The translations under genes were made by a program, and so were the position numbers. The notes under the pieces are model-generated. The model had not been told where the DNA came from. It searched no databases and saw nothing but the letters and a program-made list of their open reading frames with translations. DNA of 64,000 bases, taken from positions 861-64,860 of the forward strand of contig JBJTQP010000092.1 in NCBI GenBank assembly GCA_046075685.1. The letters run 5' to 3'. The stretch is from Planctomycetaceae bacterium. GTDB taxonomy: Bacteria > Planctomycetota > Planctomycetia > Pirellulales > UBA1268. Shown one piece after another: positions 7,124 to 56,834 of the stretch (positions are counted from its first letter, which is position 1; each line of letters starts with the position of its first letter).

Positions 7124-7136
7124 GCTCTACGAGCGT

Positions 7137-26352: not shown

Positions 26353-26363
26353 AGGAGCGAACC

Positions 26364-28997
26364 ATGTCGCTGCTTGTGGCCGGCCTGGTGGCGGCGGTGA
26401 CCTCCGCGACAGTCATTGAGCCTCCGGTGGAGACGATTCCCGGGATCGTCATTCACCATGTGCCGGCCGCAACGAAAACGTTCGTGGGCTCCCCGAGCCT
26501 TGCGATCATGCCCGACGGCACGTACGTTGCGAGCCACGACCTGTTCGGGCCAGGAAGCAGCGAGTGGACGTCGGCTGTGACCGAGGTGTTCCGTAGCCGG
26601 GATCGCGGAGCAACGTGGTCACCTGTCGCGCGCGTGCAGCCGGCCTTCTGGTCCGGGTTGTTCGTGCACGGGGGAAGCCTCTACCTGATGGGCACCACGC
26701 ACCACCATGGCCGGATCGTGATCCGCCGGAGCGACGACGGGGGCGCGACCTGGACCACGCCTGATTCGGAGACGACCGGTCTGCTCACCGAGGACGGTGC
26801 GTACCACACTGCTCCCATGCCGGTTCTCGTGCATGGCGGTCGCGTCTGGCGGGCGTTCGAGGATGCCGGTGGAGGTACGGAGTGGGGAAAGCGCTATCGG
26901 GCCATGATGTTGTCGGCCGCGGACGACGCCGACCTGCTTGACCGCCGCAACTGGACGTTTTCCAACACCCTGGCGCGAGATCCGAACTGGCTCAAGGGCC
27001 GCTTCAACGGCTGGCTCGAGGGCAACGCGGTGGTCGGCGGCGACGGCCGCGTGTTCGACATGCTCCGCGTCGATGCGCCGGGAACGGAGCAGGCGGCGCT
27101 CGTGGAGGTGTCGGCGGACGGCCGCCGGGTGGAGTTCGATCCCGAGCGTGGATTCGTGGAGTTTCCCGGTGGGGCAAAGAAGTTCGCAGTCCGCCGCGAT
27201 CCGCGGTCAAAGACGAAGGACGAGCCGCCGGTATGGTGGACGCTCGCGTCGGTGGTCGCTCCGGTCGACGCCGGCCGCATGCCCCCTGGGGCGATCCGCA
27301 ACACGCTTGCCCTGATGCGGTCGGACGATCTGCGGCACTGGGAGATGCGATCGATCGTGCTGCACCATCCCGACGTGACCAGGCATGGCTTCCAGTACGT
27401 CGACTGGTTGTTCGACGGGGATGACCTCGTGGCCGTCAGCCGCACGGCGCACGATGACGCCAAGGGGGGCGCCCCGCGGGCGCACGACGCCAACTATCTG
27501 ACCTTTCATCGGTTCGCTGACTTTCGTGATCGGGTGCTCGCTGATTCCGTCGTCGACCCGGCGACCCTCGGCTGGCCGGCCGCCGGCAGCACGAAGGGGG
27601 CAGCGGCTGCGACGGCCGCTCCACGATCGCCCAACGTGGTCGTGATCGTGGCCGACGACCTCGGCTGGCGGGACCTCGGCTGCACCGGCAGCCCCTGGCA
27701 CAGCACACCCCGGATCGACGGCCTCCGTGCGGCCGGGATGCTCTTCACCGAAGCGCACGCCGCGGCGCCGATCTGCTCGGCGTCGCGTGCCGCGCTGCTC
27801 ACGGGCCTGGCGCCCGCGCGGCTTCACTACGAGTTCGTGCCCAAGTGGCAGCCGGGCCGGCAGGTGGGTGATCACGTGCTCCGCACGCCCGACTACCCGC
27901 TGGAGATGCCGGCTGCGACGCCGACAGTGGCGACGGCGCTGGCGGCCGCCGGCTACCACACGGCCTTCGTCGGCAAGTGGCACCTGAACCGCCACCACGG
28001 CCGCTACCTCGGCTGGCTGCCGGGCCATGGGCCGGAATCGTTTGGTTTCGCGTCCACCGCCGACGATGCCGTGCCCGGCGGGATCGTGCCGCGGGCAGTG
28101 CGCATGCTCGCAGAGGCCCCGGGCGATCGGCCCTTCCTGCTCTGGGTGTCGCACACGCTGGTCCACGACCCGTTCACGAAGGGAAGCGAACCACGGGTGG
28201 CCCACCATCGGGCCCGTTTCGCTGCGGAGGGCGTCGTCCGGGGGCTCGATGAGCGGGCCCATTTCGCCGCAATGGTCGAGTCGCTCGACGATGACGTCGG
28301 CCGCCTGCTCGACGCCCTCGAACGACACGGCATGGCCGATCACACGATCGTCGTATTCACCAGCGACAACGGGGGCCATCCCGCCGTCTCGACCCGGGCG
28401 CCCCTGCGGGGCTCGAAGTGGAACCTCTACCAGGGAGGCGTCCGTGTGCCGCTGATCATTCGCTGGCCGGGCGCGGCGGCGGAGGGGACCGCGTCGGCCG
28501 TGCCGGTGATCGGCACCGATCTCGCGGCGACGATTCTCGAGGCCTGCGGCGTGGAATCGCTTCCACGCACCGACGGTCGCAGCCTCGTGCCGCTGCTGGC
28601 GGGAGATCCGGCGAGGCCCTGGGATGAGCGGCCGCTTGTCTGGCACTACCCGTTCTACTCGCCTGAGACCAACTTCACCGCGGCCCTGCCGACGATCGGC
28701 GTGGACGACGGCGGCCTGCAGCAGGTGAGGCCGCACGCGGCCATCCGTGTGGGAAGCAGCAAGCTCATCCACTGGTTCGAGGACGGCAGCCGCGAGTTGT
28801 ACGACCTCGTCACCGACCCGTCAGAGGCCGAGGACCGCGCGGCGGATCAGCCCGCGCAGGCGGCGGTGCTCGAAGATCGGCTCCTGGCGACACTCCGCGA
28901 CTGGGAGGCACGGCTGCCGGCGATCAGGGTTCCGGGGGACGCGCCGCTCTGGTCAACGCCGAATGCCGCCGATACTCCCGCGGCGACCTCCCCATGA
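26364..28997 (+). CDS. Fusion protein: N-terminal BNR/Asp-box sialidase-like beta-propeller plus C-terminal S1 sulfatase
   Basis: AAGGAG lies upstream of the ATG at 26364, and a signal-like N-terminus follows. Asp-boxes SRDRGATW and SDDGGATW are present, then VVIVADDLGWRDLGCTG...PICSASRAALLTG (Cys-type sulfatase motif, C-x-A-x-R variant), GKWHLN and TSDNGG. Confidence 0.85.
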   Translation: MSLLVAGLVAAVTSATVIEPPVETIPGIVIHHVPAATKTFVGSPSLAIMPDGTYVASHDLFGPGSSEWTSAVTEVFRSRDRGATWSPVARVQPAFWSGLFVHGGSLYLMGTTHHHGRIVIRRSDDGGATWTTPDSETTGLLTEDGAYHTAPMPVLVHGGRVWRAFEDAGGGTEWGKRYRAMMLSAADDADLLDRRNWTFSNTLARDPNWLKGRFNGWLEGNAVVGGDGRVFDMLRVDAPGTEQAALVEVSADGRRVEFDPERGFVEFPGGAKKFAVRRDPRSKTKDEPPVWWTLASVVAPVDAGRMPPGAIRNTLALMRSDDLRHWEMRSIVLHHPDVTRHGFQYVDWLFDGDDLVAVSRTAHDDAKGGAPRAHDANYLTFHRFADFRDRVLADSVVDPATLGWPAAGSTKGAAAATAAPRSPNVVVIVADDLGWRDLGCTGSPWHSTPRIDGLRAAGMLFTEAHAAAPICSASRAALLTGLAPARLHYEFVPKWQPGRQVGDHVLRTPDYPLEMPAATPTVATALAAAGYHTAFVGKWHLNRHHGRYLGWLPGHGPESFGFASTADDAVPGGIVPRAVRMLAEAPGDRPFLLWVSHTLVHDPFTKGSEPRVAHHRARFAAEGVVRGLDERAHFAAMVESLDDDVGRLLDALERHGMADHTIVVFTSDNGGHPAVSTRAPLRGSKWNLYQGGVRVPLIIRWPGAAAEGTASAVPVIGTDLAATILEACGVESLPRTDGRSLVPLLAGDPARPWDERPLVWHYPFYSPETNFTAALPTIGVDDGGLQQVRPHAAIRVGSSKLIHWFEDGSRELYDLVTDPSEAEDRAADQPAQAAVLEDRLLATLRDWEARLPAIRVPGDAPLWSTPNAADTPAATSP

Positions 28998-29895: not shown

Positions 29896-30072
29896 GCGAG
29901 GCTTTTTCCCACCCGTGTCGTTACCATCGAAGACAAGATTCTGCCACATCATCGACAGTGAGGCGAAAACGTGGGGACACGTCGGTCTGCAAGGGACATG
30001 GTGTGTCCGGGTCGGATGCGTTCCGCAGATGCCCGGGGGAGCGGCAAGGTGAGACTGTCGGCACCTGTATCC

Positions 30073-31554
30073 ATGTGCCCGCCCGGCCTGATCGCCGCGG
30101 CCGTGCTCCTTCTTGGGGCGATCGAGCCGGCCTCCACCGCCGAGCCCGAGCGGCGGGTGCCGCTCAGCGTGCTGTTCATCGCGGCCGACGACCTGCGGAA
30201 CGACCTCGGCTGCTACGGCAATCCGATCGTCCGCACGCCCCACATCGACTGTCTCGCAGCCCGCGGCACGGTGTTCGAAGCGGCCTACTGCCAGCAGGCG
30301 GTCTGCAATCCGTCGCGGGCGTCACTGCTCACCGGCCGCCGACCCGACACGCTGCGGATCTGGGACCTTCCGACGCACTTCCGCTCCCACCACCCGAGGA
30401 TCGTCACGCTGCCGCAGCACTTCATGCGTCACGGATACCACGCCGAGGATGTCGGGAAGATCTTCCACAACTGGAAGCAGTCGATCGAGGGCGATCCCGA
30501 GTCGTGGAGCGTTCCGGCAGTGATGCACTTCGGGAATCACGGGGCGGATCAGCCCCAGATGGCCGGCCCGCTGCCGCCGGACCTGGTGAAGACGCCACGG
30601 TGCGAGATGCGCGACGTGCCCGACGAGGCCTATCTCGACGGGCGGATAGCGGCCCGGGCTGTCGAGAGTCTCCGCGAGTCGGCACGCCGTGAGTCGCCCT
30701 TTTTTCTGGCCGTCGGTTTCTGGAAGCCGCACGCACCGTTCAACGCTCCGAAGCGGTACTGGGATCTCTACGACCCTGCCACGATCCCGGAGCCGCGGCA
30801 TCCGGAGTGGCCGCGGGGTGCACCGCGGATCGCCTGGCATGACAGCCAGGAGATCCTGCGCGAGGCCGCGAGCGGGCTCACGCGGGAGCAGGCCCGCACC
30901 ATCCGGCACGGCTATCTGGCGGCCGTGAGCTACCTCGACGCCCAGGTGGGCCGCGTACTTGACGAACTCGAGCGGCTGGGGCTGGCCGAGCGGACGATCG
31001 TGGTGCTCTGGTCCGATCACGGCTACCACCTCGGCGAGCAGTCGCTCTGGGCGAAAACCTCGAACTTCGAACTCGACGCCCGCGTTCCGCTGGTGATCGC
31101 AGCCCCCACGGTGGCCGCTGCGGGCCAGCGGGTGGCGACGCCTGTGGAACTGCTTGATCTCTACCCGACGCTCGTGGACCTGGCCGGCCTGCCGGTGCCG
31201 CCGGGTCTCGAGGGGCGGAGCCTCGTGCCGCTGCTCCTCGACCCTGATGCGCCCTTCAAGCCGGCGGCGCTCTCGCAGCATCCGCGGCCGTCGTACATCG
31301 ACCGGGCACCCGGAGGCGTGCCGACCGCGATGGGCTACTCGGTTCGCAGCTGCACGCACCGTTACACCGAGTGGCGCGACTGGAAGACCGGTGAGACGAC
31401 GGCCCGCGAGCTCTACGACCACGTCGCCGATCCGGACGAGAGCGTGAACCGGGCCGCCGATCCGGAGCAGCGGGACGTCGTCACCCGGCACGCTTCGCTC
31501 CTCGAGGCCTTTCAGCCTCTCGTGAAGCCCGGCTGGACGCCCGCGATGCCATGA
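30073..31554 (+). CDS. Sulfatase (S1 family, iduronate-2-sulfatase-like), secreted
   Basis: The ATG at 30073 gives signal peptide MCPPGLIAAAVLLLGAIEPASTA. LFIAADDLRNDLGCYGN...AVCNPSRASLLTG (CxPxR), SDHGYHLGE and WAKTSNFE are present. The ORF is open from 29971. Confidence 0.88.
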   Translation: MCPPGLIAAAVLLLGAIEPASTAEPERRVPLSVLFIAADDLRNDLGCYGNPIVRTPHIDCLAARGTVFEAAYCQQAVCNPSRASLLTGRRPDTLRIWDLPTHFRSHHPRIVTLPQHFMRHGYHAEDVGKIFHNWKQSIEGDPESWSVPAVMHFGNHGADQPQMAGPLPPDLVKTPRCEMRDVPDEAYLDGRIAARAVESLRESARRESPFFLAVGFWKPHAPFNAPKRYWDLYDPATIPEPRHPEWPRGAPRIAWHDSQEILREAASGLTREQARTIRHGYLAAVSYLDAQVGRVLDELERLGLAERTIVVLWSDHGYHLGEQSLWAKTSNFELDARVPLVIAAPTVAAAGQRVATPVELLDLYPTLVDLAGLPVPPGLEGRSLVPLLLDPDAPFKPAALSQHPRPSYIDRAPGGVPTAMGYSVRSCTHRYTEWRDWKTGETTARELYDHVADPDESVNRAADPEQRDVVTRHASLLEAFQPLVKPGWTPAMP

Positions 31555-31664
31555 AGAAACGTGGGTACCAGGTGCCGCGGGCGTGTATCACGGTGGTCGC
31601 CTGCCTCGACGTCGCCGTTCGCCTGTATAACGCTGCCGCCGCGCCCCCGACTCCCGTCACGCCC

Positions 31665-32984
31665 ATGCCTGAGCCGCGCCAGCTCACTTCCGCCCCGCAC
31701 GGTCACGTGCTCACCAACTGCGGCGTGTGGACGCCCGACTCCCGTTGGATCGTCTACGACGTCCGCTCGGCGGCGGATGGCTCCATGTTCGACGGCACGC
31801 GGATCGAACGGGTCGAGGTGGCGACGGGCCGGGTCGAGGTGCTCTACGAGTCGCGCGAGAACGCCTGCTGCGGCGTCGTCACGGCGAGCCCGGTGGACGA
31901 TCGCGTGGCCTTCATCCTCGGTCCCGAGCGGCCCACCGCCGATTGGTCGTACGGGGCGGCCCGGCGGCAGGGCGTCGTTGTCCGCGCGTCGCGGCCGGGC
32001 GTCGCGGAGCCCCTGGACGCCCGGGACCTCGTGCCGCCGTTCACGCCCGGGGCCCTGCGTGGCGGCACGCACGTGCATGTGTTCTCGCCCGACGCAGCGG
32101 CCGTGAGCTTCACCTACGAGGATGCCGTGCTCGAGGCGGCCGCGGCCGCCGGCACCGCCGCGGAGAAGAGCCTGCGGGGCGTGGGCGTGAGTGTCTGCGG
32201 TCGGCCGGTCAGCGTACCGGCGCGGCATCCCCGCAACCACGACGGCTCCGCGTTCACCGTGCTTGTGACGCGGCTCGCCGACGCGCCGCGGCCCGGCAGC
32301 GACGAGATCTCGCGGGCCTTCGAGGAGGCATGGATCGGCACCTCGGGCTACGTGCGGGCCGACGGCCGGCGGCAGCGGCGGGCGCTGGCGTTCCAGGGGC
32401 AGGTGGTGTCGGCCGCGGGTGACCCGGTCAGCGAGGTGTTCGTCATCGACCTTCCCGACGACCTCGGTGATCTCACCGTGGCGGCAGCCGCCACGCTTGC
32501 GGGCACGGCGACGACACGACCTGCGCCGCCCGGGGGGGTCGATCAGCGGCGGCTGACCTTCACGACGGAGCGTCGCCATCCCGGTCTTCAGGGCCCGCGG
32601 CACTGGCTGCGGTCGAGCCCCGACGGCGCCCGGATCGCGTTCCTGATGAAGGACGACGCCGGCATCGTGCAGCTGTTCACGGTCGCACCCACCGGCGGTG
32701 TCCCGGTCCAGATGACGCATGATCCGCATGGCGTCGCAAGCGCCTTTACATGGAGCCCCGAAGGTCGCCGGATCGCCTGTGTGATCGATGGCAGTATCTG
32801 CCTCGTCGATGCCGCCGGCGGCGTGGTGACCCGCCTGACGGAACCGCGTCGCGACGCTCCCGGACCCCGGCCCGAAGCCTGTGTCTTCTCCCCGGACGGC
32901 CGCCGGATCGCCTGGGCGATGCCCGTCGCCATGGCCGACGGTCAGCGCTGGAACCAGGTGTTTACAGTCGACGTGACGGACTGA
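31665..32984 (+). CDS. DUF3748 (E. coli YidR-like) beta-propeller protein
   Basis: MPEPRQLTSAPHGHVLTNCGVWTPDSRWIVYDVRS...RIERVEVATGRVEVLYES...LRGGTHVHVFSPD...PGSDEISRAFEEAWIG...RRLTFT...GPRHWLRSSPDGARIAFLMKDDAGIVQLF closely tracks the YidR sequence as I remember it. An alternative ATG at 31551 overlaps the sulfatase stop. Confidence 0.8.
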   Translation: MPEPRQLTSAPHGHVLTNCGVWTPDSRWIVYDVRSAADGSMFDGTRIERVEVATGRVEVLYESRENACCGVVTASPVDDRVAFILGPERPTADWSYGAARRQGVVVRASRPGVAEPLDARDLVPPFTPGALRGGTHVHVFSPDAAAVSFTYEDAVLEAAAAAGTAAEKSLRGVGVSVCGRPVSVPARHPRNHDGSAFTVLVTRLADAPRPGSDEISRAFEEAWIGTSGYVRADGRRQRRALAFQGQVVSAAGDPVSEVFVIDLPDDLGDLTVAAAATLAGTATTRPAPPGGVDQRRLTFTTERRHPGLQGPRHWLRSSPDGARIAFLMKDDAGIVQLFTVAPTGGVPVQMTHDPHGVASAFTWSPEGRRIACVIDGSICLVDAAGGVVTRLTEPRRDAPGPRPEACVFSPDGRRIAWAMPVAMADGQRWNQVFTVDVTD

Positions 32985-35900
32985 TGCGGCGTCGCAGCCT
33001 GGAGACGAGGCGTCCGCAGAAGGTGGCGACGGTCAGGAGCGCGAGCGTGGCACCGGCGGCGGGCTCGGGCACGGGCGCCGGCGGCGGGGCCTGTCCGCTC
33101 TTGGAGTCAGCGTAGCCGCCCGAATCAAACATGGCGGCGCCGGCGAAGGTGGCGGCGTCGAGGATGTCGACGAGGCCGTCGGCGTTGAAGTCTCCCTGCC
33201 ACCAGGCGGCGTCACGTCCCGCGTCGAACAGGCCGGCTCCGAGGAAACTGGCGGCATCGAGCACGTCGACGAACCCGTCGAGGGTGCAGTCGCCGATCGC
33301 CGCGTATCCCACGGTGAACGATCCGTCGTCACGCGGCACCCAGCCTACGGCCCTCGGCAGGCCGCCGGCGACCTCGGTCGCCACGGTCGTGGAAACGATG
33401 CCCCTGCCGCCGTTCCAGCCACCAGCGTTGAAACCGTCCATGAGCGCGGAACGAAGATCCGACTCGGCCATGCCGCCTGCGGCGATCGTCACCCGCCCCC
33501 TGCCCACATCGAGCAGACCAGACGAGGCGGAAAGCGACAGTCCCTTGAACACGGCTTCGAGCGGAACGTCGGCGGGCAGCGTCACTCGACCGCCGGCGAT
33601 CGTCACGCTGTCGCTCGCGGCCAGAGCCTCCGGGTGGGTGATCCGGAGCGTGCCGCCCGTCAACTGGGCCGGACCCGTGAACGTGTTGGCCGCGTCGAGC
33701 GTCCACGTTCCGGCGCCCGACTTCACGAGGCTCACGGTCGCCACGCCGTCCGAGATCGGGCCGCGGACCACGTTGCCGACGCCGCTTCCGGAGAGTTCGA
33801 GCGTCTTGGGAACCGCGATCCCGGTGGCGGAGACCGCACCGAGCGTGATGGTGGCGGTGGTGGGCTGAAGCCTGGTGATCGCGCTTACGACCCCCGCGCC
33901 GAGGTCGAGCGATGGGATGTCGAGAGCGGCGCCGTCGTCGGACACAGACGAAGCCGCCCGCACCGTCAGCGTTCCGCCGCTCAGCCTTGTGCCGGGAGCC
34001 AGGCGGTGAGTCAGGCCCGGGCCGATGGTTCCCCATGGGCGACCGATGGCGAGCGTGCTCGCGAAGCCGTTGTTGCCACGAACCAGGGGCCCTGGGCCAC
34101 CGCCGGCGGTGGCCAGTTCGACCGTGGTGGCGGTTATTCCATCGAGTACGAGAACCCCTCCTGATACAGGGTCGCCGAGCGCCTCTGGATTGGCCAGCAC
34201 GAGACCGCCTCCGTTGGTGACCGTCACACCCCCCGTGAACGTGTTGGTGGCGGCGAGCACGAGCTGTCGCCCGGCGGCCGTCACGCTTCCGCTGCCGGAC
34301 AGCACTCCGGTGAGCGTCTGAGGCATTGACGCCTGATGCAGAAACCGGCTGCCGGCTGCCAGCGAGATGGTTCCGGCGAACGCGCCTCCGGCGCCCAACG
34401 CCCCGGAACCGGAGATCATGAGGGTTCCCGCGGAGACGGCGACGGTGCCGCCGAACTCGCCAGTGCCGGAGACCACGAGCGTGCCTCCGCCGTCCTTCAG
34501 CACCCGACCATCGCCCGCCAGCCCACCACTCAGCGTGATGGTGTCGGCATGGTCGAACGCCAGAGTGCCGCGGATCACGAACCCGGTGCTCGGCACCACG
34601 ACCCCGCTGCCGCCGCTGCCGAACCGCAGGCACCCTGCGGCCACTGTGGTGCGGCCGGTGTACCCGTTTTGACCGTTGATCACCAGGGTCGCCGTGCCGG
34701 CCTTCGTGAGCCCGCTCGCTCCGCTGGCATGGTTGAAGATGCCATGGCTGAGCACCACGTCGGCCGTCACCGTGTTCACCACGAGTTCACGGGAACTTCC
34801 CACCAGCAGGTCGAGTCGGGACCCGCCTCCCAGCGTCAGCCCCCCCGCTCCCGTGGTCATGATGCCGTTGGCCGTGAGCGTGCTGCCGGCGGCGACGGCC
34901 TGCTGCACGGCCCCGCCGCCGCTGTAGTCGATCGTGTTCACGATCCGATCACCGGCCGCTGCGGCGAACGTGCCGGACGACGCGATGTCGTAGCTGCTCG
35001 TCGCAGTGTCGCCGGCGGCGATGCCGCCGAAGGCCGTCATGCCGTTGACGACGGTTCCGGCCGTGAAGGCCGTAATGGTACCGCCGCTGAGGGTGGCGTA
35101 GCGGGTGCCCGTGCCCGAGCCCGTGAACGCCCAGGCGCCGAGGATCCCGCTGCTCATGGTGGCGGATGTCGTGATCGGTCCGGTGCGGTTGACGAAACGA
35201 ACGACACCCCCCGGTTCGCGGAGCAGCGGCCCGAGGCCCAGCGTTCCCGTGCCGACTGTATTGGACACGGCGGCGTCACCCGCGGTGATCGCGAGGCCGT
35301 CGAACGACTGGGATCCAGCAATCTTCGCGAGGGCGAACGTGCCGCCCACCAGCGTGACGCGGCCCGCCGCGCTCATGCTGCCCGCCAACTGCAAGGTGCC
35401 AAGCTCAACGCGGAGTCCACCCGTGAAGCTGCTGGTGCCCGCGAGCGTCGTCGTGCCATTGCCCCGCTTGGTGATCCCGCCGCTACCGCTGATGGTGCCG
35501 GCATAGGTGACGCCGCCGCCCGGCTCGAACACGAGCATGGCCTGGTTGACGATCGGGCCGGCGAGGCTGCCGGCCGTTCCGCCCGCGCCCAGCCGCAACA
35601 CGCCGCCCGCCACCGTGGTGGTGCCGGTGAACGGGCTGGAGCCCGACAGGGTGAACGTTCCGGAGCCCTCCTTCACGAGGCCACCGCTGCCACTGATCGA
35701 GCCGGCGAACTCGGTGCTGCGGCCGACGGCTCCGATGCGAAGGGTCTGGCCGCCGATGTCGAGGCTGCGTGTGCCGAGGATCCCGGCCAGCGAGACCGCC
35801 TGCCCCGCAGTGCCGAGGGCCAGCGTGCCGTTGTCGCCGGCAGCGAACTCGAGGGTCGTCGTGGCGAGACTGGTGGAGCCTCCGAGCCGGAGCACTCCGG

Positions 35901-38826
35901 CGGCAATCCGCACGGTGCCGTCAAGCGCGTTGGACGAGGCAAGGGTGAGCGTGCCACTGCCGAGTTTCACGAGCGATCCGCCGGCACTGACCAGCGGCGA
36001 GGTGAAGGTGACGCTGCGGCCTGCGGTATCGATGCGAAACTCCTGGCCGGCCTCCTGGGAGAACCGCGGCGAATAGTCGGCCGTGGTGGCGTCCGAATAC
36101 TGCAACCCTCCACCTGCGAAGGTGATTGTTCCTGCTGTGCCGAGCGCCTGCGGTGAACCGGCCTGCAGCAGGCCGCCGGCAAGGCGAACGCCTCCTGCGA
36201 ACACGTTGGTTCCGGCCAGCGTCACCACGTCATTCCCGAGTTTCACCAACGGCGCAGATGCAAGATCGGCCTTCACGATCAGGGTGCCGTCGCCACCCCC
36301 GAACCGGTAGCCCGTCGATCCCGGCAGGAGCGTTCCACCGAGCACCGCCGTACCGCTGCCGGCGACGGTCAGGCCGGGCGCGCTCCGGAGGTCGAGCGGT
36401 GCCTGCAGCGAGCCGGAGATCACGATCGCGCCGGATGATGCGGCATCGATCCTGCCGGAAGCCAGCCAGGCGGGCAGCGGGGTGTCGGCCGGAGCTGCGA
36501 GCGCCGCCCCGGATGCGATCCGGATCGTCACGGTCTCCGGCAGGGATGACGTTCCGCTGAGCCGCAGCATGCCTTGCTCGATGGCCACGGTGCCGGAGAA
36601 CGAATTGCTGCCACCGAGGGTGAGGGTTCCCGAGCCGGTCTTCACGACACCGCCCGCTCCGGTCAGATCGCCGGTGTACGTGGTGGATCGGCCGTTGCCG
36701 CCGACGCGGAGCGTGGCGGCGCCCAGTGTCAGGCCGCGACTACCGGCCAGCCCGCCGAGCGATACCGTACGGGCCGATCCCGTTGCGAACGTGACGCCGC
36801 CGGCGTCGGCGGCCTGCAGATCGAGCGTCGATCCCGCGAGGCTCGCTGTGCCGGTGATACACAGCGTGCCCGCCACGACCCTCGTGTCGCCGCTGAAGGT
36901 GTTGTCGCCGGCCAGCGTCCACACGCCAGAGCCCGTCTTCACGAGGCCGCCGCCGCCCACGTACGACTTGGCCAGCGTGCCGGAGCCCGTGGTCGCGTGG
37001 AGCGTGAGCGCGCCACCTGCCGACGTGATCCGGGCCGCCGCGGCGGATTCCAGCAACGCCACGTTCACGCCTGGCTGCAGGTCCAGCAGGGCGCCGCCAC
37101 CGCCGATCGTGAATCCGCGGGAGGTCGATTCGGACGCGGCCAGCCGCAACGTGCCACCGTCGAGCGTGACCCGGTCGGACGTCGCCGGGAGGTTGCCGAG
37201 GGAACCGGTGGGGAGTTCCGAGAAGCTCGCGGCCAGAAGCGTGCCCGACGAGACCACCACGGCCGACCCCGGCGTTATGGCGGTCGCGTACAATCGACCG
37301 TTCACCGACAGCATGCCACCGGAGACCATCGTCGGTCCCGCGTAGCCGCCGGCCGTCGTTGAGACCACGAGCAGGCCGCCGCCCGTCTTGGCGAGCGAGC
37401 CCGAGCCGGAGCCGGTGACAAGGGGGCCCGTGAGCGTCGTCGTGCCGGCCACCGCGAACGTCGCCGTGCCCGACAGTGTGGTGGTGCCGGTGATGCGGAG
37501 GCCCCCCGGAGCTTCGAGCGTGCCCCCGGCCAACTCGAGCGGATCATCGAGCGTGAAGATGCCCGCCACCGGCTCGATGGCCAAGGTGCCGGCGGGACCG
37601 ACCCGCATGCCGCCCGCGCCGGTCACCAGCGCACCCCCGGCGAGGCGGAGCGTGCCTCCGGCGACGTCGATGATCCCGTCGTTGGTGATGCGAGTGCCGT
37701 CGAAGGAGATCCGGTTGGTGCCCGTCTTGCGGAGCACGGCGTCCGGCTCGACCCGCACCCACGTGCCTGCACCTGAAAGCCCCCAGTTCATGCCGCCGGT
37801 GAGGCTGCTGGTGTTGGCGAGCGCTGCGACATACTTCACGATGCCGGTTGCGGTACCGGTCATCGTCAGCGTGCCGCCGGTCAGATAGGCGACGTATTCG
37901 CCGAGATCCTGTCCGCCCACGTTCGCGGTGCTGCCGCTGGTCACCGCTCCCACGTACCGGTAGGCCATTGGCGTCGGCAGGGGGGGAGATCCCGCGTACA
38001 GCGGCGAATCGCTGAACCAGTTGTACCAGGCGTAGGCGGGCACGTAGCTCCGGGAGTCCAGCCTCGGGACCACGTTGTCGAGGAACAACTTGTTGGCATC
38101 GATGACCTGCTGGTCCGTGTAGGCGCCGCCCCAGTCATGGATCGCGAACTCCGTGGGCATCACCCCCCTGCCGTACGTGGTGCGGAAGTAATCGACGCTG
38201 CCAATGAACCAGTTCGCCGCCTCGGTCGGATTGGAGGGGCTCGACGAACCGTACCAGTGGAAGGCGATTGCATCGACGCGGAGGTTGGGGTTGTACCCGG
38301 CACTGGCCACGTTGGTGCGGCGATCCTCGAGCTGCGTCATGAAGTCGGCCAGCCAGGCGCGCCCCGTCGAGTTGTCGGAGATGGCGGGGCCCGCGAGTTT
38401 GACCGACGTACCCGCGAAGGCGTCGCAGATCCGTGACCAAGAGTCGAGTGCGGTGGTCACACTCATGTTGGCCTGATCGGGGCGATCGGGCTCGTTGAAG
38501 CCCAGCACCCACTCGACCCCGGGCCGGTGTCTCACGCTCGCGATCGTGGCGTCGCTGGGCGAGCTCCAGAACATCGGGTAGTGCTTCGCACCGAAGGCGC
38601 CGGGTGACGCGCTGCCCGTGCCCCAGGTGTAGTACCAGCCTGCACCCACCGCCTGGAGGTTGGTGTAATTGGCGCGGACGTCGCCAAATCCCCGCCTGGG
38701 GTTGATGATCTGGGCCGGGGCGACAGCTGCCGAAGTGGCTGCGGCGAGCACGACGAGCACGCGGGCCACCATGTGATCTGCGACGCGGCGGCGGTTCGTC
38801 GTGGTGGACGCTCCGGGGCTGGTCAT
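32962..38826 (-). CDS. Giant cell-surface protein: signal peptide, glycoside-hydrolase catalytic-core-like domain, ~1500 aa of autotransporter-associated beta-strand (PATR) repeats, dockerin-like motifs, PEP-CTERM anchor
   Basis: The start is ATG 38826 (1954 aa) or ATG 38772. The N-terminus has GFGDVRANYTNLQAVGAGWYYTWG...WVLGFNEPD...AFHWYG (GH_cc-like). Dozens of G-T-L/S-G repeats follow (GTLTLGGSNSFSGTVAIEQGMLRL type). DGFVDVLD and DFNADGLVDILD are present. The C-terminus is PAPVPEPAAGATLALLTVATFCGRLVSRLRRR. Confidence 0.85.
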   Translation of the reverse strand: MTSPGASTTTNRRRVADHMVARVLVVLAAATSAAVAPAQIINPRRGFGDVRANYTNLQAVGAGWYYTWGTGSASPGAFGAKHYPMFWSSPSDATIASVRHRPGVEWVLGFNEPDRPDQANMSVTTALDSWSRICDAFAGTSVKLAGPAISDNSTGRAWLADFMTQLEDRRTNVASAGYNPNLRVDAIAFHWYGSSSPSNPTEAANWFIGSVDYFRTTYGRGVMPTEFAIHDWGGAYTDQQVIDANKLFLDNVVPRLDSRSYVPAYAWYNWFSDSPLYAGSPPLPTPMAYRYVGAVTSGSTANVGGQDLGEYVAYLTGGTLTMTGTATGIVKYVAALANTSSLTGGMNWGLSGAGTWVRVEPDAVLRKTGTNRISFDGTRITNDGIIDVAGGTLRLAGGALVTGAGGMRVGPAGTLAIEPVAGIFTLDDPLELAGGTLEAPGGLRITGTTTLSGTATFAVAGTTTLTGPLVTGSGSGSLAKTGGGLLVVSTTAGGYAGPTMVSGGMLSVNGRLYATAITPGSAVVVSSGTLLAASFSELPTGSLGNLPATSDRVTLDGGTLRLAASESTSRGFTIGGGGALLDLQPGVNVALLESAAAARITSAGGALTLHATTGSGTLAKSYVGGGGLVKTGSGVWTLAGDNTFSGDTRVVAGTLCITGTASLAGSTLDLQAADAGGVTFATGSARTVSLGGLAGSRGLTLGAATLRVGGNGRSTTYTGDLTGAGGVVKTGSGTLTLGGSNSFSGTVAIEQGMLRLSGTSSLPETVTIRIASGAALAAPADTPLPAWLASGRIDAASSGAIVISGSLQAPLDLRSAPGLTVAGSGTAVLGGTLLPGSTGYRFGGGDGTLIVKADLASAPLVKLGNDVVTLAGTNVFAGGVRLAGGLLQAGSPQALGTAGTITFAGGGLQYSDATTADYSPRFSQEAGQEFRIDTAGRSVTFTSPLVSAGGSLVKLGSGTLTLASSNALDGTVRIAAGVLRLGGSTSLATTTLEFAAGDNGTLALGTAGQAVSLAGILGTRSLDIGGQTLRIGAVGRSTEFAGSISGSGGLVKEGSGTFTLSGSSPFTGTTTVAGGVLRLGAGGTAGSLAGPIVNQAMLVFEPGGGVTYAGTISGSGGITKRGNGTTTLAGTSSFTGGLRVELGTLQLAGSMSAAGRVTLVGGTFALAKIAGSQSFDGLAITAGDAAVSNTVGTGTLGLGPLLREPGGVVRFVNRTGPITTSATMSSGILGAWAFTGSGTGTRYATLSGGTITAFTAGTVVNGMTAFGGIAAGDTATSSYDIASSGTFAAAAGDRIVNTIDYSGGGAVQQAVAAGSTLTANGIMTTGAGGLTLGGGSRLDLLVGSSRELVVNTVTADVVLSHGIFNHASGASGLTKAGTATLVINGQNGYTGRTTVAAGCLRFGSGGSGVVVPSTGFVIRGTLAFDHADTITLSGGLAGDGRVLKDGGGTLVVSGTGEFGGTVAVSAGTLMISGSGALGAGGAFAGTISLAAGSRFLHQASMPQTLTGVLSGSGSVTAAGRQLVLAATNTFTGGVTVTNGGGLVLANPEALGDPVSGGVLVLDGITATTVELATAGGGPGPLVRGNNGFASTLAIGRPWGTIGPGLTHRLAPGTRLSGGTLTVRAASSVSDDGAALDIPSLDLGAGVVSAITRLQPTTATITLGAVSATGIAVPKTLELSGSGVGNVVRGPISDGVATVSLVKSGAGTWTLDAANTFTGPAQLTGGTLRITHPEALAASDSVTIAGGRVTLPADVPLEAVFKGLSLSASSGLLDVGRGRVTIAAGGMAESDLRSALMDGFNAGGWNGGRGIVSTTVATEVAGGLPRAVGWVPRDDGSFTVGYAAIGDCTLDGFVDVLDAASFLGAGLFDAGRDAAWWQGDFNADGLVDILDAATFAGAAMFDSGGYADSKSGQAPPPAPVPEPAAGATLALLTVATFCGRLVSRLRRRISPSRRL

Positions 38827-39992: not shown

Positions 39993-40141
39993 CCCGCGAG
40001 CATCGAGCTGACGAGGCCATGGATGGCTCGTCAGCGGTCAGCGGTCGGCGTGATGGCGACCGCAGCGAGGGGGGTGAACCTTTGGCTTCACCCCGCGAGC
40101 ATCGAGCTGACGAGGCCATGGATGGCTCGTCAGCGGTCAGC
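39993..40141. repeat. Two identical 50-bp direct repeats (39993-40042, 40092-40141), each a 13-bp bulged palindrome, flanking a third hairpin (40071-40094)
   Basis: CCCGCGAGCATCGAGCTGACGAGGCCATGGATGGCTCGTCAGCGGTCAGC occurs twice, 99 bp apart. The inner stem is GCTGACGAGGCCAT/ATGGCTCGTCAGC. Between the copies lies GGGGTGAA-N8-TTCACCCC. Copy 2 contains the last codons and stop of the DUF11 gene. Confidence 0.85.
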
Positions 40142-42688
40142 ATAGACCCGCGTCGTCTCTTCCTTCGTGATGGGCGATGATTGGTCGGCGCTCGTGAGCT
40201 GCACCTGGATCCGTTGGTCGCCGGCGGCCCGGCCAGCGGCGCGGATGCGAAACACCGCCTCCTCCGCCGGCGCGAGCTTGGCGAGCGGCTCGAAGGCCAC
40301 CGTCGCCCGATCCACCCGGTGGCCACCCGGCCCGTGGGCCTCGAGCGGCTCGATGTCGCCGAGCAGCGTGGCCGCCAGCCTCACGCCGGTGGCGGGCTTC
40401 GTGCCCTGATTGACCACGCGGACCACGTATTCCGTGACGCCGCCGACCTCGATCGGATCCTCGCTGTCGAGCACCTCGAAGGACACGGCGGCGAGCCCTT
40501 CCACATCACAGGCGTGCGCGGTCTGGGCCGAGAGGCCGTCGGCGCTGCGGGCGGCGGCCATGATCCGCTGGGGGCCGAGCTCGACGGGCATCACCACCAC
40601 CTGCACCGTACCGGTCTCGCCGGCGGGCAGTTCCTCGAGGTTCCAGAGCACTTTGTGCGTGCGGTCGTCGTGCCAGCCGGCATTGTTGGCCTTCACGAAC
40701 TTCATGCCCGGCGGCAGCTGGGCGGCGAGTTCCAGGGCCCGTGCCGGAGCCGTGCCCGCATTGGTCATCGCGATCGTGCAGGTCGCAGGCCGTTGCAGGA
40801 ATCGTCGCAGCGGCATGTCGATGGCGATCTCGAGCGTGGGTGCCGTGACTTGGATCGGCACCTGCCGGACGACCTCGACGCCCCCGTCAGCCCGGGCCGC
40901 CAGTCGCGCCGCGTGGAGGCCCGGCCCCCGCGTGCCGAGCACGAGGTCGATCGTGCGAGACTCGCCGGGCCGGAGCTGGCCGACATCGAACTCGAGTTCC
41001 CGGCCCGAGCGATGGGAGACGTTCTCGGGCAGGAAGCCCTCCAGCACCACGCCGGTCGCCACGCCCGTGCCGGGGTTGGTGATCGTGATCGTGACCTGGA
41101 GGTCGCGGCCAATGAGCACCGGCTCCGGAGACGCGCATTCGATCGCCAGGTCGGGTTTCGTGGCCTTGGAGCGGATCGAGGCGTCGGTGCGGAAGCTCAC
41201 GCTGGCGACACTGCCGATTTCACCCTCCACCTGCGGCATCACCTCCATCGTGACCACGGTCTGGCCTCCGGGGGGCAGCGTGCCGAGCAGCCAGGCGAGG
41301 CCGCCGTCGGCCGCCTCGGGTGTCTGGGGCACGGGGCTTGCCGGCGGCGTGGTGGCGACGAGCGCCGTGCCCTGCGGCACCGCATCGCGGAGGATCACGT
41401 CGTGGGCGGTGGCACTGCCGACGTTGCGAACGACGATCTCGTAGCGGGCCGGCTTGCCGACCGAGACTTCGCGGGGTCCGCGCTTCTCCACCGAGACCTG
41501 CGGCGTCTGGATGCCTTCGAGCTGCATCGGACCCGGTCGGCCGACCCCGGCGACGGGTGGCTGCCGGGGGGGCGGGCCTGCCGGGCGTTCGGGATCGGCC
41601 GCGGCCAGCCCATCGCTCATGACGGGCGGCGCGGCGGCGAAGGGCGATGCATCGGCGGCGGACGAAGACGGCGCTGCCACCGGCACGGGAAACGACGAGG
41701 CATCACTCGAGCCTGCCGCGCGGAGGTCTTTGGCGGCCGGCGGCGAGGTCGGAGGTGAAGATGGCGTACGAGACGTCGCGGGCATCGTCGCTGGAGGCGG
41801 CACGAACATCGAGGGCTGGGCCGCGGGCACGGGCGGTGCGGGCGGGGCACCTGGAAACGCCGGCGGCGCTGCGCCGAACGCCACCGCCGCCGGTGGCTCG
41901 GACGGCACCGCGTCGGGAACGGGTACCGGAACAGGCTCAGGGGCGGCGAGGTCGCCCGCGTCCTCCGGAAGCGGATTCGCCGGAGACTGCCCCGGTTGGT
42001 GCGACACCCCGGGCTCCTCCTGCGGGGTTGGTCTCCGGGCCTCATGCTCCGGGGTTTCGGCAGAGGCCGGTGAAGGCTCAACGCGGGGTGATGTCGGGGC
42101 CGCATCAGTGGACGTGGCGGCAGGATCGAGCGGGTCTTCACGGGTGGCCGGCACGACGCCGTCACTTCCCGGCTCGAGGTCGGCGGGCGTGAAGCGCGAG
42201 AACCGTGGAACCGCCGCGGCGTCTGCGGCAGCGGGGAGCACGGTGTCGGGCATGTCGAGGGACGCAGGCTTCACGGGATACCGCGAGCCAGTTGCCCCCG
42301 TGTCGGTCTCGTGGGCCGCCGGGCGACTCCCCCAGCGATCCGGCCGCGTGGCGGATGCGGCTGGCACCGCGTCATCGATCGGTGGCAGCAGGTCGGGCTC
42401 GCGGTGGGTGGCACCGCTGGTGTGATCAAGCATGCGGGGATGGTCGGCCGTGGCCTGCATACCATCGTCGGGAGCGAGCGCGGCAGAGGCACCTTCGTCG
42501 CTGGTGGGCCGTGTTCCGCGCCCGATCCCCAGGGCCCAGACCAGGCCGAAGCCCGCCGCGGCGCAGACGCAGGCTCCGATGACGGCCGACATGTTCGATT
42601 GCCGGGGCGGCACGACGAGCGACTGGCGTGAGGGCCGGGAAGCGGCATCCCCGGCGTCGGCCGCCGGCGTGGATTCAGGAGTGGGCAT
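40130..42688 (-). CDS. DUF11 (conserved repeat domain) surface protein with a Pro/Ala-rich N-terminal region and TM anchor
   Basis: 852 aa with TM segment MSAVIGACVCAAAGFGLVWALGIG and a long P/A-rich linker. Several Ig-like repeats follow, of the type V..EKRGPREVSVGKPARYEIVVRNVGSATAHDVILRDAVPQG and ITITNPGTGVATGVVLEGFLPENV. Confidence 0.75.
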   Translation of the reverse strand: MPTPESTPAADAGDAASRPSRQSLVVPPRQSNMSAVIGACVCAAAGFGLVWALGIGRGTRPTSDEGASAALAPDDGMQATADHPRMLDHTSGATHREPDLLPPIDDAVPAASATRPDRWGSRPAAHETDTGATGSRYPVKPASLDMPDTVLPAAADAAAVPRFSRFTPADLEPGSDGVVPATREDPLDPAATSTDAAPTSPRVEPSPASAETPEHEARRPTPQEEPGVSHQPGQSPANPLPEDAGDLAAPEPVPVPVPDAVPSEPPAAVAFGAAPPAFPGAPPAPPVPAAQPSMFVPPPATMPATSRTPSSPPTSPPAAKDLRAAGSSDASSFPVPVAAPSSSAADASPFAAAPPVMSDGLAAADPERPAGPPPRQPPVAGVGRPGPMQLEGIQTPQVSVEKRGPREVSVGKPARYEIVVRNVGSATAHDVILRDAVPQGTALVATTPPASPVPQTPEAADGGLAWLLGTLPPGGQTVVTMEVMPQVEGEIGSVASVSFRTDASIRSKATKPDLAIECASPEPVLIGRDLQVTITITNPGTGVATGVVLEGFLPENVSHRSGRELEFDVGQLRPGESRTIDLVLGTRGPGLHAARLAARADGGVEVVRQVPIQVTAPTLEIAIDMPLRRFLQRPATCTIAMTNAGTAPARALELAAQLPPGMKFVKANNAGWHDDRTHKVLWNLEELPAGETGTVQVVVMPVELGPQRIMAAARSADGLSAQTAHACDVEGLAAVSFEVLDSEDPIEVGGVTEYVVRVVNQGTKPATGVRLAATLLGDIEPLEAHGPGGHRVDRATVAFEPLAKLAPAEEAVFRIRAAGRAAGDQRIQVQLTSADQSSPITKEETTRVYADR

Positions 42689-43713: not shown

Positions 43714-43852
43714 GCGGGTGTCTCCGGGCGACGCGGGAAGGATGATCGGGTGAGAGCCGGCTGGAACCGGGTTTTCCACGCCAAGGCGATCGCGTATCTT
43801 ACGGTTTCCCGCCTCGCACCTGGGCTGCGGCGGGATTCGCCGCTCGGGAAGG

Positions 43853-49466: not shown

Positions 49467-49579
49467 GCTGGCAGTGGCTCCACGAGTCCGCGGATGAAAG
49501 GCACGTCGAACGTGGTCGAATGTACCAGAGGCGCGCGCGGGCGGAAGCCGCGGGGCCGGTTGCCCCGCGCGGAGGTGGG

Positions 49580-56698: not shown

Positions 56699-56834
56699 GA
56701 TGCCTCCCCGCCGTGCCTCGGCCCGGCCCTCCCTGAGGAGATGCCTCTTGTCCTCCGCGCCGGCCTCGTGGCTCAGCACCACGCCCGCCGCGGGAGGTGA
56801 GCGTATCATCCTCCCGAAACAGGAGCGGGCGGCC

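What the first reader, a model, noticed from the sequence alone, without database searches (positions are those of the whole stretch)
32962..38826. 1954-aa PEP-CTERM surface protein combining a glycoside-hydrolase core with ~1500 aa of autotransporter-type beta-strand repeats
The architecture read from the translation is:
- A signal peptide.
- A ~330-aa domain resembling the glycosyl-hydrolase catalytic core family (WYYTWG, LGFNEPD, AFHWYG).
- An almost uninterrupted run of Gly/Thr/Leu-rich PATR-type repeats predicted to form a very long beta-helix.
- Two dockerin/EF-hand-like DxxDGxVDxLD motifs.
- A VPEP-TM-RRR PEP-CTERM sorting signal.

An enzyme head displayed on a ~1500-residue stalk and anchored by an exosortase-type signal is unusual. 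No exosortase or EPS genes are nearby.
Basis: partly seen in the sequence, partly recalled or inferred. Interest (0 to 1): 0.55.

Follow-up and report, generated by a model that had tools for sequence, protein, structure and literature searches.

The report
Long-stalked surface glucanase of a planctomycete
This is a real 1954-residue secreted protein of a planctomycete that carries a probable beta-1,3-glucan-cutting enzyme on a very long beta-strand stalk with a membrane-sorting tail; it is the longest form of a widespread but unstudied protein family, not a one-off.

Summary
Window 32962-38826 (-) is one 1954-aa gene, already in NCBI as MFM7205972.1 under a generic 'autotransporter-associated beta strand repeat' name.

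- **Head (residues 39-300):** a GH128 catalytic domain by Pfam, PDB sequence search and predicted fold. Both catalytic Glu are present (E112 and E226, matching E102 and E199 of AmGH128_I).
- **Stalk:** about 1450 residues rich in Gly/Thr/Ala/Leu, with 10-11 dispersed PATR units. There is no autotransporter barrel.
- **C-terminus:** two dockerin-like calcium loops, just below the Pfam cut-off, followed by VPEP, a hydrophobic helix and RRR.
- **Sorting tail:** it fails both PEP-CTERM models. However, it aligns with 29 homologous tails in which P-E-P is invariant, and 23 of those match TIGR02595.

The architecture is not unique. At least 74 protein clusters and 47 genome loci, nearly all Planctomycetota, share the same head and neck. 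Most are 650-1100 aa and end in a PEP-CTERM tail.

The ~1950-aa form is confined to one small clade of uncultured Planctomycetota. Its orthologues are 66% identical with almost no indels in the stalk.

No exosortase lies in the window, which is normal for PEP-CTERM genes. The rest of the genome could not be searched. Enzyme activity and surface location are inferred.

The parts
32962..38826 (-). Whole coding sequence, 1954 aa plus stop (NCBI MFM7205972.1)
   Evidence: ORF list and translation. Exact match in the protein collection. Codon-position GC is 0.65/0.62/0.83. Full-length orthologues exist.
38713..38826 (-). N-terminal signal peptide, residues 1-38: basic RRR stretch, hydrophobic VLVVLAAATSAAVA, then APA before Q39
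   Evidence: Read from the sequence. All family members have an equivalent leader ending just before Q/A-IL-x-x-KRGF. The model shows a low-confidence helix at 12-31. No signal-peptide predictor was available, so this is inferred.
37927..38712 (-). GH128 (PF11790) catalytic (beta/alpha)8 domain, residues 39-300
   Evidence: PF11790, E 1.5e-33. PDB phmmer hit to 6UAQ, E 1e-20. Model pLDDT 90. Foldseek top 23 hits are all GH128 or a GH128-module protein; best target-normalised TM-score 0.81.
38491..38493 (-). Codon of Glu112 in the N-E-P motif, the predicted catalytic acid/base
   Evidence: Aligns with E102 of AmGH128_I. Chain index 96 plus an offset of 6, counted from the alignment; the PDB has an E102A mutant entry. 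At least 90% conserved in 28 sequences and invariant in 11.
38149..38151 (-). Codon of Glu226 in the T-E-F motif, the predicted nucleophile
   Evidence: Aligns with the residue mutated in 6UFL (E199Q, 'TQY') and 6UAS (E199A, 'TAY'). Conserved as for E112. H190 and Y192 of the H-W-Y motif are also conserved.
37396..37926 (-). Conserved 'neck', residues 301-477: the first beta-strand rungs, directly following the barrel
   Evidence: Short strands every 4-8 residues at pLDDT above 90 up to residue 409. The family match runs through residue ~405 in most of the 74 strongest clusters. 71% identical to orthologues with no gaps.
33628..37395 (-). Stalk with 10-11 PATR units, residues 478-1733. Composition: Gly 19.5%, Thr 13%, Ala 13%, Leu 11%, Cys 0.1%
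   Evidence: PF12951 x9 and TIGR02601 x10. Unit positions from an HMM built here. Internal segment similarity of 30-51%, for example 625-740 against 949-1063. Autocorrelation peaks at 6-7, 19-21 and 27 residues. Only about 5 gap columns against orthologues.
33307..33627 (-). End of the solenoid plus a small conserved subdomain containing G-W-N-G-x-x-G-I, residues 1734-1840
   Evidence: Predicted at pLDDT 86-95, with two helices and a hairpin. Conserved in 18 homologues whose N-terminal parts differ.
33112..33306 (-). Pair of dockerin-like calcium-binding loops, starting at D1846 and D1879, each followed by a short helix
   Evidence: Pfam Dockerin_1: E 6.7e-4, 20.2 bits, below the 22.9 cut-off. 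Asp at loop positions 1, 5, 9 and 12 of both loops is invariant in 19 sequences. The fold is not confirmed: pLDDT is below 50.
32965..33111 (-). Pro-rich linker and PEP-CTERM-like tail. VPEP lies at residues 1919-1922 (window 33061-33072), followed by 16 hydrophobic residues and then R..R.RRR
   Evidence: Read from the sequence. P-E-P is invariant in 30 aligned homologous tails, and 23 of those match TIGR02595. The tail itself is below threshold. The model predicts a helix over the hydrophobic stretch.

Best explanation
The gene encodes a secreted, cell-envelope-associated glycoside hydrolase of a planctomycete.

**Proposed pathway and parts:**
1. A Sec-type leader takes the protein across the cytoplasmic membrane (inferred).
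2. The N-terminal GH128 (beta/alpha)8 domain is a retaining beta-1,3-glucanase, with E112 as acid/base and E226 as nucleophile. Domain identity is shown; the substrate is inferred from the characterised GH128 subgroups.
3. The domain sits directly on a beta-strand solenoid of about 1450 residues that includes 10-11 PATR units. If this is one continuous solenoid with 20-27 residues per rung, it would be roughly 25-35 nm long (inferred).
4. The near absence of indels between orthologues of 58-67% identity shows that stalk length and register are under selection. This fits a rigid spacer rather than a variable repeat array.
5. The C-terminal cassette has a small subdomain, two dockerin-like calcium loops, and VPEP followed by a helix and a basic cluster. 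It is shared with other proteins that carry different N-terminal domains, so it behaves as a portable anchoring module.
6. The tail most likely holds the protein in the cytoplasmic membrane until an exosortase cleaves at PEP and releases it for transfer to the surface or matrix. This step is inferred from the PEP-CTERM model of Haft et al. 2006.

The result would be an enzyme held tens of nanometres from the cell, able to attack particulate or polymeric beta-1,3-glucan such as laminarin, chrysolaminarin or fungal and algal wall glucan.
For: **Head**
- PF11790 at 116.8 bits.
- PDB sequence hits are to GH128 entries, with 6UAQ at E 1e-20.
- The head model has pLDDT 90 and pTM 0.84.
- The Foldseek top 23 hits are all GH128 or a GH128-module protein; the best are the subgroup I endo-beta-1,3-glucanase (target-normalised TM-score 0.78-0.81).
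- E112 and E226 align with E102 and E199. N111, H190 and Y192 are also conserved.

**Stalk**
- PATR and TIGR02601 hits.
- Confident beta-strand rungs at both ends.
- Orthologue L002 is 66% identical over 1915 residues with 9 gaps. Identity by region: head 83%, neck 71%, stalk 58-67%.

**Tail**
- P-E-P is invariant in 30 homologous tails, of which 23 hit TIGR02595.
- Family members L014, L017 and L033 pass Pfam PEP-CTERM.
- Composition is low in Cys and high in Thr/Ser, as Haft reports for PEP-CTERM proteins.

**Family and context**
- The family comprises 74 clusters at E<=1e-30 and 47 loci, nearly all Planctomycetota.
- In relatives, a GH16 gene lies next to P0004, and an alginate lyase and a Pel9A-like protein lie near P0058.
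- In the window, two sulfatases lie next to the gene.
Against: - The tail itself fails both PEP-CTERM models: 7.5 bits against 16, 8.1 against 20.7, and no hit for the 50-aa version.
- No exosortase was found in the window or in about 20 kb around any of the 49 related loci. The rest of the genome could not be searched.
- The head is only 27-28% identical to characterised GH128 enzymes, so the substrate could differ.
- The middle of the stalk was not modelled. Neither model gave a significant beta-helix match in the PDB.
- The dockerin-like region is below the Pfam cut-off and was modelled at pLDDT below 50.
- Neighbouring genes are not conserved between orthologues, so gene context says little.
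Confidence: 0.6

Rival explanations
1. The enzyme works on the cell's own matrix rather than on food. The GH128 head would trim or remodel a self-made beta-glucan exopolysaccharide, holdfast or biofilm matrix, and the protein would be delivered into that matrix by the EPS-linked PEP-CTERM route.
For: The PEP-CTERM/exosortase system is tied to exopolysaccharide loci and to floc or biofilm formation. The window holds no sugar transporter or polysaccharide-utilisation cluster next to the gene. Neighbours are not conserved between orthologues.
Against: Relatives sit next to degradative enzymes: GH16 beside P0004, and an alginate lyase and a Pel9A-like protein near P0058. The window has sulfatases next door. 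No beta-1,3-glucan synthase or EPS genes were seen in the window. GH128 in Planctomycetota is treated as a laminarinase in comparative genomics.
Confidence: 0.17
2. The tail is a plain C-terminal membrane anchor and is not processed by an exosortase. The protein would stay tethered to the cytoplasmic membrane and span or fill the periplasm.
For: The tail fails both PEP-CTERM models. No exosortase was found in any sequence examined.
Against: P-E-P is invariant across 30 homologous tails at 14-45% identity, although the flanking residues vary. That conservation is unexpected for a mere anchor. 23 of the 30 tails match TIGR02595, and several relatives pass Pfam PEP-CTERM. A solenoid of 25-35 nm would be longer than a typical periplasm (inference).
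Confidence: 0.13
3. The protein is an adhesin. The GH128 head would act as a non-catalytic glucan-binding lectin at the tip of an adhesive beta-helix.
For: GH128 subgroup VII members are oligosaccharide-binding proteins (6UBC and 6UBD). PATR-rich proteins are often adhesins; there are weak NCBIfam matches to ShdA and fusolisin passenger regions.
Against: Both catalytic Glu, the Asn before the acid/base and the His-x-Tyr motif are invariant or nearly so across the family. The closest structural matches are the catalytic subgroup I enzymes, not subgroup VII. The head is the most conserved part of the protein, at 83%.
Confidence: 0.08

Closest known systems
GH128 endo-beta-1,3-glucanases, subgroup I (AmGH128_I of Amycolatopsis mediterranei; PDB 6UAQ, 6UFL, 6UAS, 6UAT)
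   Same: Same Pfam family (PF11790) and the same (beta/alpha)8 fold (target-normalised TM-score 0.78-0.81). Same N-E-P acid/base, T-E-[FY] nucleophile and H-W-Y motifs.
   Different: Only 27-28% identical. The characterised enzymes are single domains of about 240-260 aa, or carry a CBM6 as in CBM6E of Saccharophagus. None has a beta-solenoid stalk, a dockerin-like pair or a C-terminal sorting tail. Activity of this protein is untested.
Planctomycetota family of GH128-head, neck and PEP-CTERM-tail proteins. Uncharacterised. Examples: P0004, P0007, P0065, P0111, and the L031 protein of Botrimarina hoheduenensis Pla111
   Same: Homologous head and neck (37-60% identity), a signal peptide, a beta-strand-rich middle and a [VI]PEP-helix-RRR end. 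Some members also have a dockerin-like module.
   Different: Most are 650-1100 aa. Their middle parts vary: one to three PATR units, LamG domains, or no recognised domain. The window protein and its orthologues (1935-1969 aa) have about twice the usual length and the most divergent tails.
PEP-CTERM/exosortase substrates (Haft et al. 2006; PepA of Zoogloea)
   Same: PEP motif, hydrophobic helix and basic cluster at the extreme C-terminus. N-terminal leader. Low Cys and high Thr/Ser. No exosortase gene nearby. Phylum known to have the system.
   Different: Below the TIGR02595 and PF07589 thresholds. The basic cluster is interrupted and is followed by seven extra residues (ISPSRRL). The exosortase partner was not seen. 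Most described substrates are small proteins without recognisable enzyme domains.
Type Va autotransporter passenger domains (pertactin, IcsA, ShdA)
   Same: PATR repeat units and a predicted parallel beta-strand solenoid. There are weak matches to ShdA and fusolisin passengers and a non-significant local match to IcsA.
   Different: No C-terminal beta-barrel translocator. The enzyme is at the N-terminus of a stalk that ends in a transmembrane helix, so the export route must differ.
Cellulosomal and non-cellulosomal dockerin-bearing glycoside hydrolases
   Same: A glycoside hydrolase joined to a duplicated D-x-[NT]-x-D-G-x-V-D-x-x-D calcium-loop module 33 residues apart.
   Different: Below the Pfam cut-off, and the fold is not confirmed. 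The module lies between a solenoid and a sorting tail rather than at a free end. No cohesin was found in the window.

Membership tests
GH128 / Pfam PF11790 Glyco_hydro_cc | Match to the family model above the curated cut-off | tested here: met
   116.8 bits against a cut-off of 21, residues 59-269.
GH128 / Pfam PF11790 Glyco_hydro_cc | (beta/alpha)8 fold superposable on solved GH128 structures | tested here: met
   Model pLDDT 90. The Foldseek top 23 hits are all GH128 or a GH128-module protein: E 3e-11 to 3e-7, best target-normalised TM-score 0.81.
GH128 / Pfam PF11790 Glyco_hydro_cc | Two catalytic Glu (acid/base in N-E-P, nucleophile in T-E-x) plus the H-x-Y motif | tested here: met
   E112 and E226 align with E102 and E199 of AmGH128_I. 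N111, E112, H190, Y192 and E226 are at least 90% conserved. Residue roles are as described in PMC10956234.
GH128 / Pfam PF11790 Glyco_hydro_cc | Hydrolysis of beta-1,3-glucan | not testable with these tools
   Needs an enzyme assay.
PATR / TIGR02601 autotransporter-associated beta strand repeat | Repeat model matches above cut-off | tested here: met
   PF12951 at 135.6 bits with 9 stretches. TIGR02601 at 159.6 bits with 10 stretches. Unit positions.
Type Va autotransporter | C-terminal beta-barrel translocator domain | tested here: not met
   Only PF11790 and PF12951 were found at E<=0.1. The C-terminus is a dockerin-like pair followed by a single helix.
PEP-CTERM sorting domain (TIGR02595 / PF07589) | Match to the domain model above the curated cut-off | tested here: not met
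   7.5 bits against 16, and 8.1 bits against 20.7, on the isolated tail. No hit for the 50-aa tail.
PEP-CTERM sorting domain (TIGR02595 / PF07589) | P-E-P motif, then a hydrophobic helix, then a basic cluster, at the extreme C-terminus of a protein with an N-terminal leader | tested here: met
   VPEP at 1919-1922, 16 hydrophobic residues, then R..R.RRR. P-E-P is invariant in 30 homologous tails, 23 of which match TIGR02595. The leader was judged by eye only.
PEP-CTERM sorting domain (TIGR02595 / PF07589) | An exosortase (EpsH/Xrt) gene and several PEP-CTERM proteins in the same genome | not testable with these tools
   Only 64 kb of the genome is available. It contains no polytopic-membrane candidate and only one PEP-type tail. 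None was found in the flanks of the 49 related loci either.
Dockerin type I (PF00404) | Match to the family model above the curated cut-off | tested here: not met
   20.2 bits against 22.9, E 6.7e-4. Relatives reach 22.9 (L031) and 19.8 (L017).
Dockerin type I (PF00404) | Two calcium-binding loops with acidic or polar residues at positions 1, 3, 5, 9 and 12 | tested here: met
   Loop 1: D1846, T1848, D1850, D1854, D1857. Loop 2: D1879, N1881, D1883, D1887, D1890. Positions 1, 5, 9 and 12 are invariant in 19 sequences.
Dockerin type I (PF00404) | Dockerin fold and a cohesin partner | tested here: inconclusive
   This region was modelled at pLDDT below 50, and no PDB match was found. No cohesin family was hit among the window ORFs scanned.

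The most novel reading that the evidence does not exclude
Planctomycetota may have their own way of displaying enzymes on the cell surface, independent of cellulosomes and of autotransporters. In this reading:
- A portable C-terminal cassette (small subdomain, dockerin-like calcium pair, PEP-type tail) is processed by an exosortase and fixes the protein to the envelope or matrix.
- A beta-solenoid of selected, fixed length acts as a molecular ruler.
- In this clade the ruler places a beta-1,3-glucanase about 30 nm out, beyond the cell's own surface layer.
- Independent stalk elongations in other lineages (1350 aa and 1617 aa) would then reflect tuning of reach.
Probability: 0.2. Interest if true: 0.6.

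Novelty: new variant of a known kind. Interest (0 to 1): 0.36.

Why it matters
Planctomycetota are major degraders of algal and plant polysaccharides, yet how they present enzymes at the cell surface is poorly known. This family links a defined enzyme (GH128) to the still poorly understood PEP-CTERM/exosortase route. That gives a substrate whose location and processing could be followed by its activity.

The long, indel-free stalk offers a natural test of whether the distance of an enzyme from the cell is under selection.

In practical terms, the gene is currently named only as a 'beta strand repeat' protein. Name-based annotation therefore hides its glucanase head.

Tried and rejected
- **C-terminal fold.** The model of the last 332 residues reached pLDDT 68 only. 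The dockerin-like part was below 50, and Foldseek against the PDB found nothing with E below 0.5. The dockerin fold therefore stays unconfirmed.
- **Rest of the source contig.** It is 78,427 bp, so 14 kb lie outside the window. Five exact-product look-ups found nothing on record.
- **Exosortase near relatives.** I screened all ORFs of at least 230 aa with six or more hydrophobic segments in the window and the 49 loci. There were six candidates. Five are transporters or a mannosyltransferase, and one has no Pfam match.
- **Sigma-54 activator at 49418-51031.** I checked whether it is the PEP-CTERM regulator PrsR. It scores 342 bits against a cut-off of 503 and scores higher on AtoC and NtrC models, so it is generic.
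- **Synteny.** None of eight neighbouring window proteins has a match in the orthologous loci L002-L006.
- **Promoter and terminator scan of the gene region.** Nothing above chance.
- **Whole-protein self-BLAST.** It gave only the identity hit. A fragment-based comparison was needed to show the internal repeats.
- **First locus search.** A closer alignment of 11 sequences worked.
- **Word-index homologue search.** It missed the 78%-identical cluster that the exhaustive search found. Its 'all hits are 636 aa or shorter' result was therefore misleading and was dropped.
- **Rejected readings.** A true autotransporter is ruled out because there is no barrel. A spurious high-GC ORF is ruled out because orthologues are conserved in frame.
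Full report
**1. The observation**

The minus strand of window 32962-38826 holds one open reading frame. Read from MTSPG it gives 1954 residues.
- Its codon-position GC (0.65/0.62/0.83) is that of the real genes of this 70% GC window.
- The exact sequence is in NCBI as MFM7205972.1, 'MAG: autotransporter-associated beta strand repeat-containing protein [Planctomycetaceae bacterium]', on a 78,427-bp contig.
- Two other in-frame ATGs are possible starts: 38841, giving 1959 aa, and 38772, giving 1936 aa.

**2. The head**

Pfam places residues 59-269 in PF11790, at 116.8 bits against a cut-off of 21.

A sequence search of the PDB returns GH128 entries, the best being the subgroup I endo-beta-1,3-glucanase AmGH128_I (6UAQ, E 1e-20). 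A few non-significant chance matches (E above 0.1) trail the list.

A model of residues 1-409, built on 28 homologues, has pLDDT 90 and pTM 0.84. Its 23 best Foldseek matches are all GH128 or a GH128-module protein, with target-normalised TM-scores up to 0.81.

Counting along the alignment, E112 (N-E-P) falls on E102 of AmGH128_I. E226 (T-E-F) falls on E199, the residue replaced in the E199Q and E199A mutant entries.

N111, E112, H190, Y192 and E226 are at least 90% conserved in 28 sequences and invariant in the 11 closest. These are the -1 subsite and catalytic residues described for GH128 (PMC10956234).

The head is therefore a GH128 domain with an intact catalytic apparatus. That it cuts beta-1,3-glucan is inferred from the family. 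Identity to characterised enzymes is only 27-28%.

**3. The stalk**

From residue 300 the model continues as short strands every 4-8 residues at pLDDT above 90.
- Residues 400-1800 are 19.5% Gly, 13% Thr, 13% Ala, 11% Leu and 0.1% Cys.
- Pfam finds 9 PATR units and TIGR02601 finds 10.
- An HMM built here places clear units at 478, 628, 727, 860, 952, 1050, 1118, 1373, 1442, 1522 and 1700. The units are dispersed, not contiguous.
- Segments resemble one another at 30-51% identity, for example 625-740 against 949-1063.
- Residue classes repeat with lags of 6-7, 19-21 and 27.

At 20-27 residues per rung and 4.8 Å per rung, a continuous solenoid of about 1450 residues would be 25-35 nm long. This is an estimate, not a result.

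There is no autotransporter barrel.

**4. The C-terminal cassette**

The last 332 residues find 26 homologues at 28-62% identity over the aligned stretch (18 of them at 42-57%). The aligned set of 18 shares three features:
- a G-W-N-G-x-x-G-I subdomain;
- two D-x-[NT]-x-D-G-x-V-D-x-x-D loops 33 residues apart;
- a VPEP, helix and basic-cluster end.

Several of these homologues have quite different N-terminal parts. Asp at loop positions 1, 5, 9 and 12 of both loops is invariant, and P-E-P is at least 90% conserved.

Pfam Dockerin_1 scores 20.2 bits, just under the 22.9 cut-off.

The isolated tail scores 7.5 bits on TIGR02595 (cut-off 16) and 8.1 on PF07589 (cut-off 20.7).

In an alignment of 30 homologous tails P-E-P is the only invariant feature. 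23 of the 30 match TIGR02595, with a best E of 5.8e-7. The window's own tail does not.

The model of this region is confident for the last rungs and the subdomain (pLDDT 86-95). It is poor for the dockerin-like stretch (below 50) and found no PDB match.

**5. Relatives**

An exhaustive profile-free search with residues 1-409 finds 1911 clusters at E<=1e-3 and 74 at E<=1e-30. Most of the 74 match through residue ~405, that is, head plus neck. They are mostly 650-1100 aa.

The long ones are P0058 (1935 aa, 78% identical), P0065 (1617 aa) and P0111 (1350 aa). All three end in PEP-type tails, and P0111 also has a dockerin-like pair.

A scan of one genome per species returns 47 loci, nearly all in Planctomycetota: Pirellulales, Phycisphaerae, Tepidisphaeraceae, Thermoguttaceae and the cultured Botrimarina hoheduenensis. 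About 30 of them end in [VI]PEP-helix-RRR.

Ten of these were scanned with Pfam:
- all have PF11790;
- three have PATR;
- two have LamG domains;
- two have sub-threshold or borderline dockerin matches;
- three pass the PEP-CTERM cut-off.

The architecture is therefore a recurrent theme of the phylum. I found no paper that describes it. GH128 in Planctomycetota appears only as a counted 'laminarinase' family.

**6. The long form**

Five genome loci hold orthologues whose heads are 82-83% identical.
- L002 has an intact 1969-aa ORF, 66% identical over 1915 residues with 9 gaps.
- L003 is split into ORFs of 535 and 1498 aa.
- L004-L006 are cut by contig ends.

Identity by region is: head 82-83%, neck 71%, stalk 49-67%, dockerin-like region 65%, tail 41%. 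Only about five gap columns fall in residues 478-1760 against L002, and nine against P0058. A repeat-built region that keeps its length this strictly is under selection for length or register.

**7. Context**

The window looks planctomycetal. It carries two sulfatases, a formylmethanofuran-H4MPT formyltransferase, and proteins with 3-keto-disaccharide hydrolase domains.

The flanking genes are a PhyH-type dioxygenase (same strand, 107 bp upstream) and a DUF3748/PD40 protein whose convergent end overlaps the stop codon by 23 bp.

None of the neighbours is conserved beside the orthologues.

No exosortase, EPS gene or other PEP-type tail is in the window. Haft et al. 2006 report that PEP-CTERM genes are mostly isolated single genes and that the system occurs in Planctomycetes. 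The absence therefore means little.

Relatives lie beside a GH16 gene, and beside an alginate lyase, a Pel9A-like protein, a two-component system and other PATR proteins.

**8. Verdict**

The description is confirmed with minor corrections. The claim of rarity is not.

The most likely reading (confidence 0.6) is an exported GH128 beta-1,3-glucanase held on a long, rigid beta-solenoid. It would be fixed to the envelope or matrix through a dockerin-like plus PEP-CTERM-type cassette.

- **Shown:** domain identities, catalytic residues, the family and its distribution, and conservation of stalk length.
- **Inferred:** substrate, solenoid shape and length, exosortase processing and final location.

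It is best classed as a new variant of known kinds of protein. It is of moderate interest, mainly as an entry point to enzyme display and PEP-CTERM sorting in Planctomycetota.

Noticed in passing
window 26109-28994 (+) and 29971-31551 (+): Two sulfatase genes lie just downstream of the target region. The first (962-residue reading frame) also has a weak BNR-repeat match in its N-terminal part. This suggests a neighbourhood for degrading sulfated polysaccharides.
   Followed up: partly
window 31551-32984 (+): A gene for a DUF3748 plus PD40 beta-propeller protein converges on the target. Its end overlaps the target's stop codon region by 23 bp (32962-32984).
   Followed up: partly
window 40130-42688 (-): An 852-aa protein with DUF11 and CARDB repeats lies two genes upstream on the same strand (NCBI MFM7205974.1). 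It is probably another surface protein. It has no PEP-type tail.
   Followed up: partly
window 42820-44262 (-): A formylmethanofuran-tetrahydromethanopterin formyltransferase gene (FTR and FTR_C domains). From general knowledge, H4MPT-linked C1 genes occur in Planctomycetota, so this fits the phylum assignment.
   Followed up: no
window 43754-46165 (+) and 47280-49655 (-): Two large ORFs (804 and 792 aa) with coding-type GC3 have no Pfam or NCBIfam match at all.
   Followed up: no
window 49418-51031 (+): A sigma-54-dependent activator. I checked whether it is the PEP-CTERM regulator PrsR. It scores 342 bits against a cut-off of 503, with AtoC and NtrC models scoring higher, so it is not PrsR specifically.
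   Followed up: yes
window 6753-7775 (+) and 54695-56986 (-): Two proteins with a 3-keto-disaccharide hydrolase domain. The second is fused to a glucuronyl-esterase-like domain. A GCE_fung protein also lies near the P0004 relative.
   Followed up: no
L003 5447-7054 and 6771-11267: The orthologue in this MAG is split into overlapping ORFs of 535 and 1498 aa. This is either a frameshift or an assembly error.
   Followed up: no
P0002 and P0003 (C-termini): Two shorter relatives (524 and 538 aa) both end in a similar stretch, 'IDNFESYA..RR...QPAVDR..GH..G.HRE'. It looks like out-of-frame sequence, yet it is conserved between them. Unexplained.
   Followed up: no
L001 12685-21568 and L049 7632-9164, 17223-22487: Other PATR-repeat proteins cluster beside relatives of the target: at least four next to P0004, and proteins of 510 and 1754 aa next to P0058. 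A LuxR-type response regulator lies directly upstream of P0058.
   Followed up: no
L036 8364-9581: A sodium/calcium exchanger gene sits immediately upstream of the GH128 family gene in this Phycisphaerae MAG. This may be chance, but the family does have calcium-loop modules.
   Followed up: no
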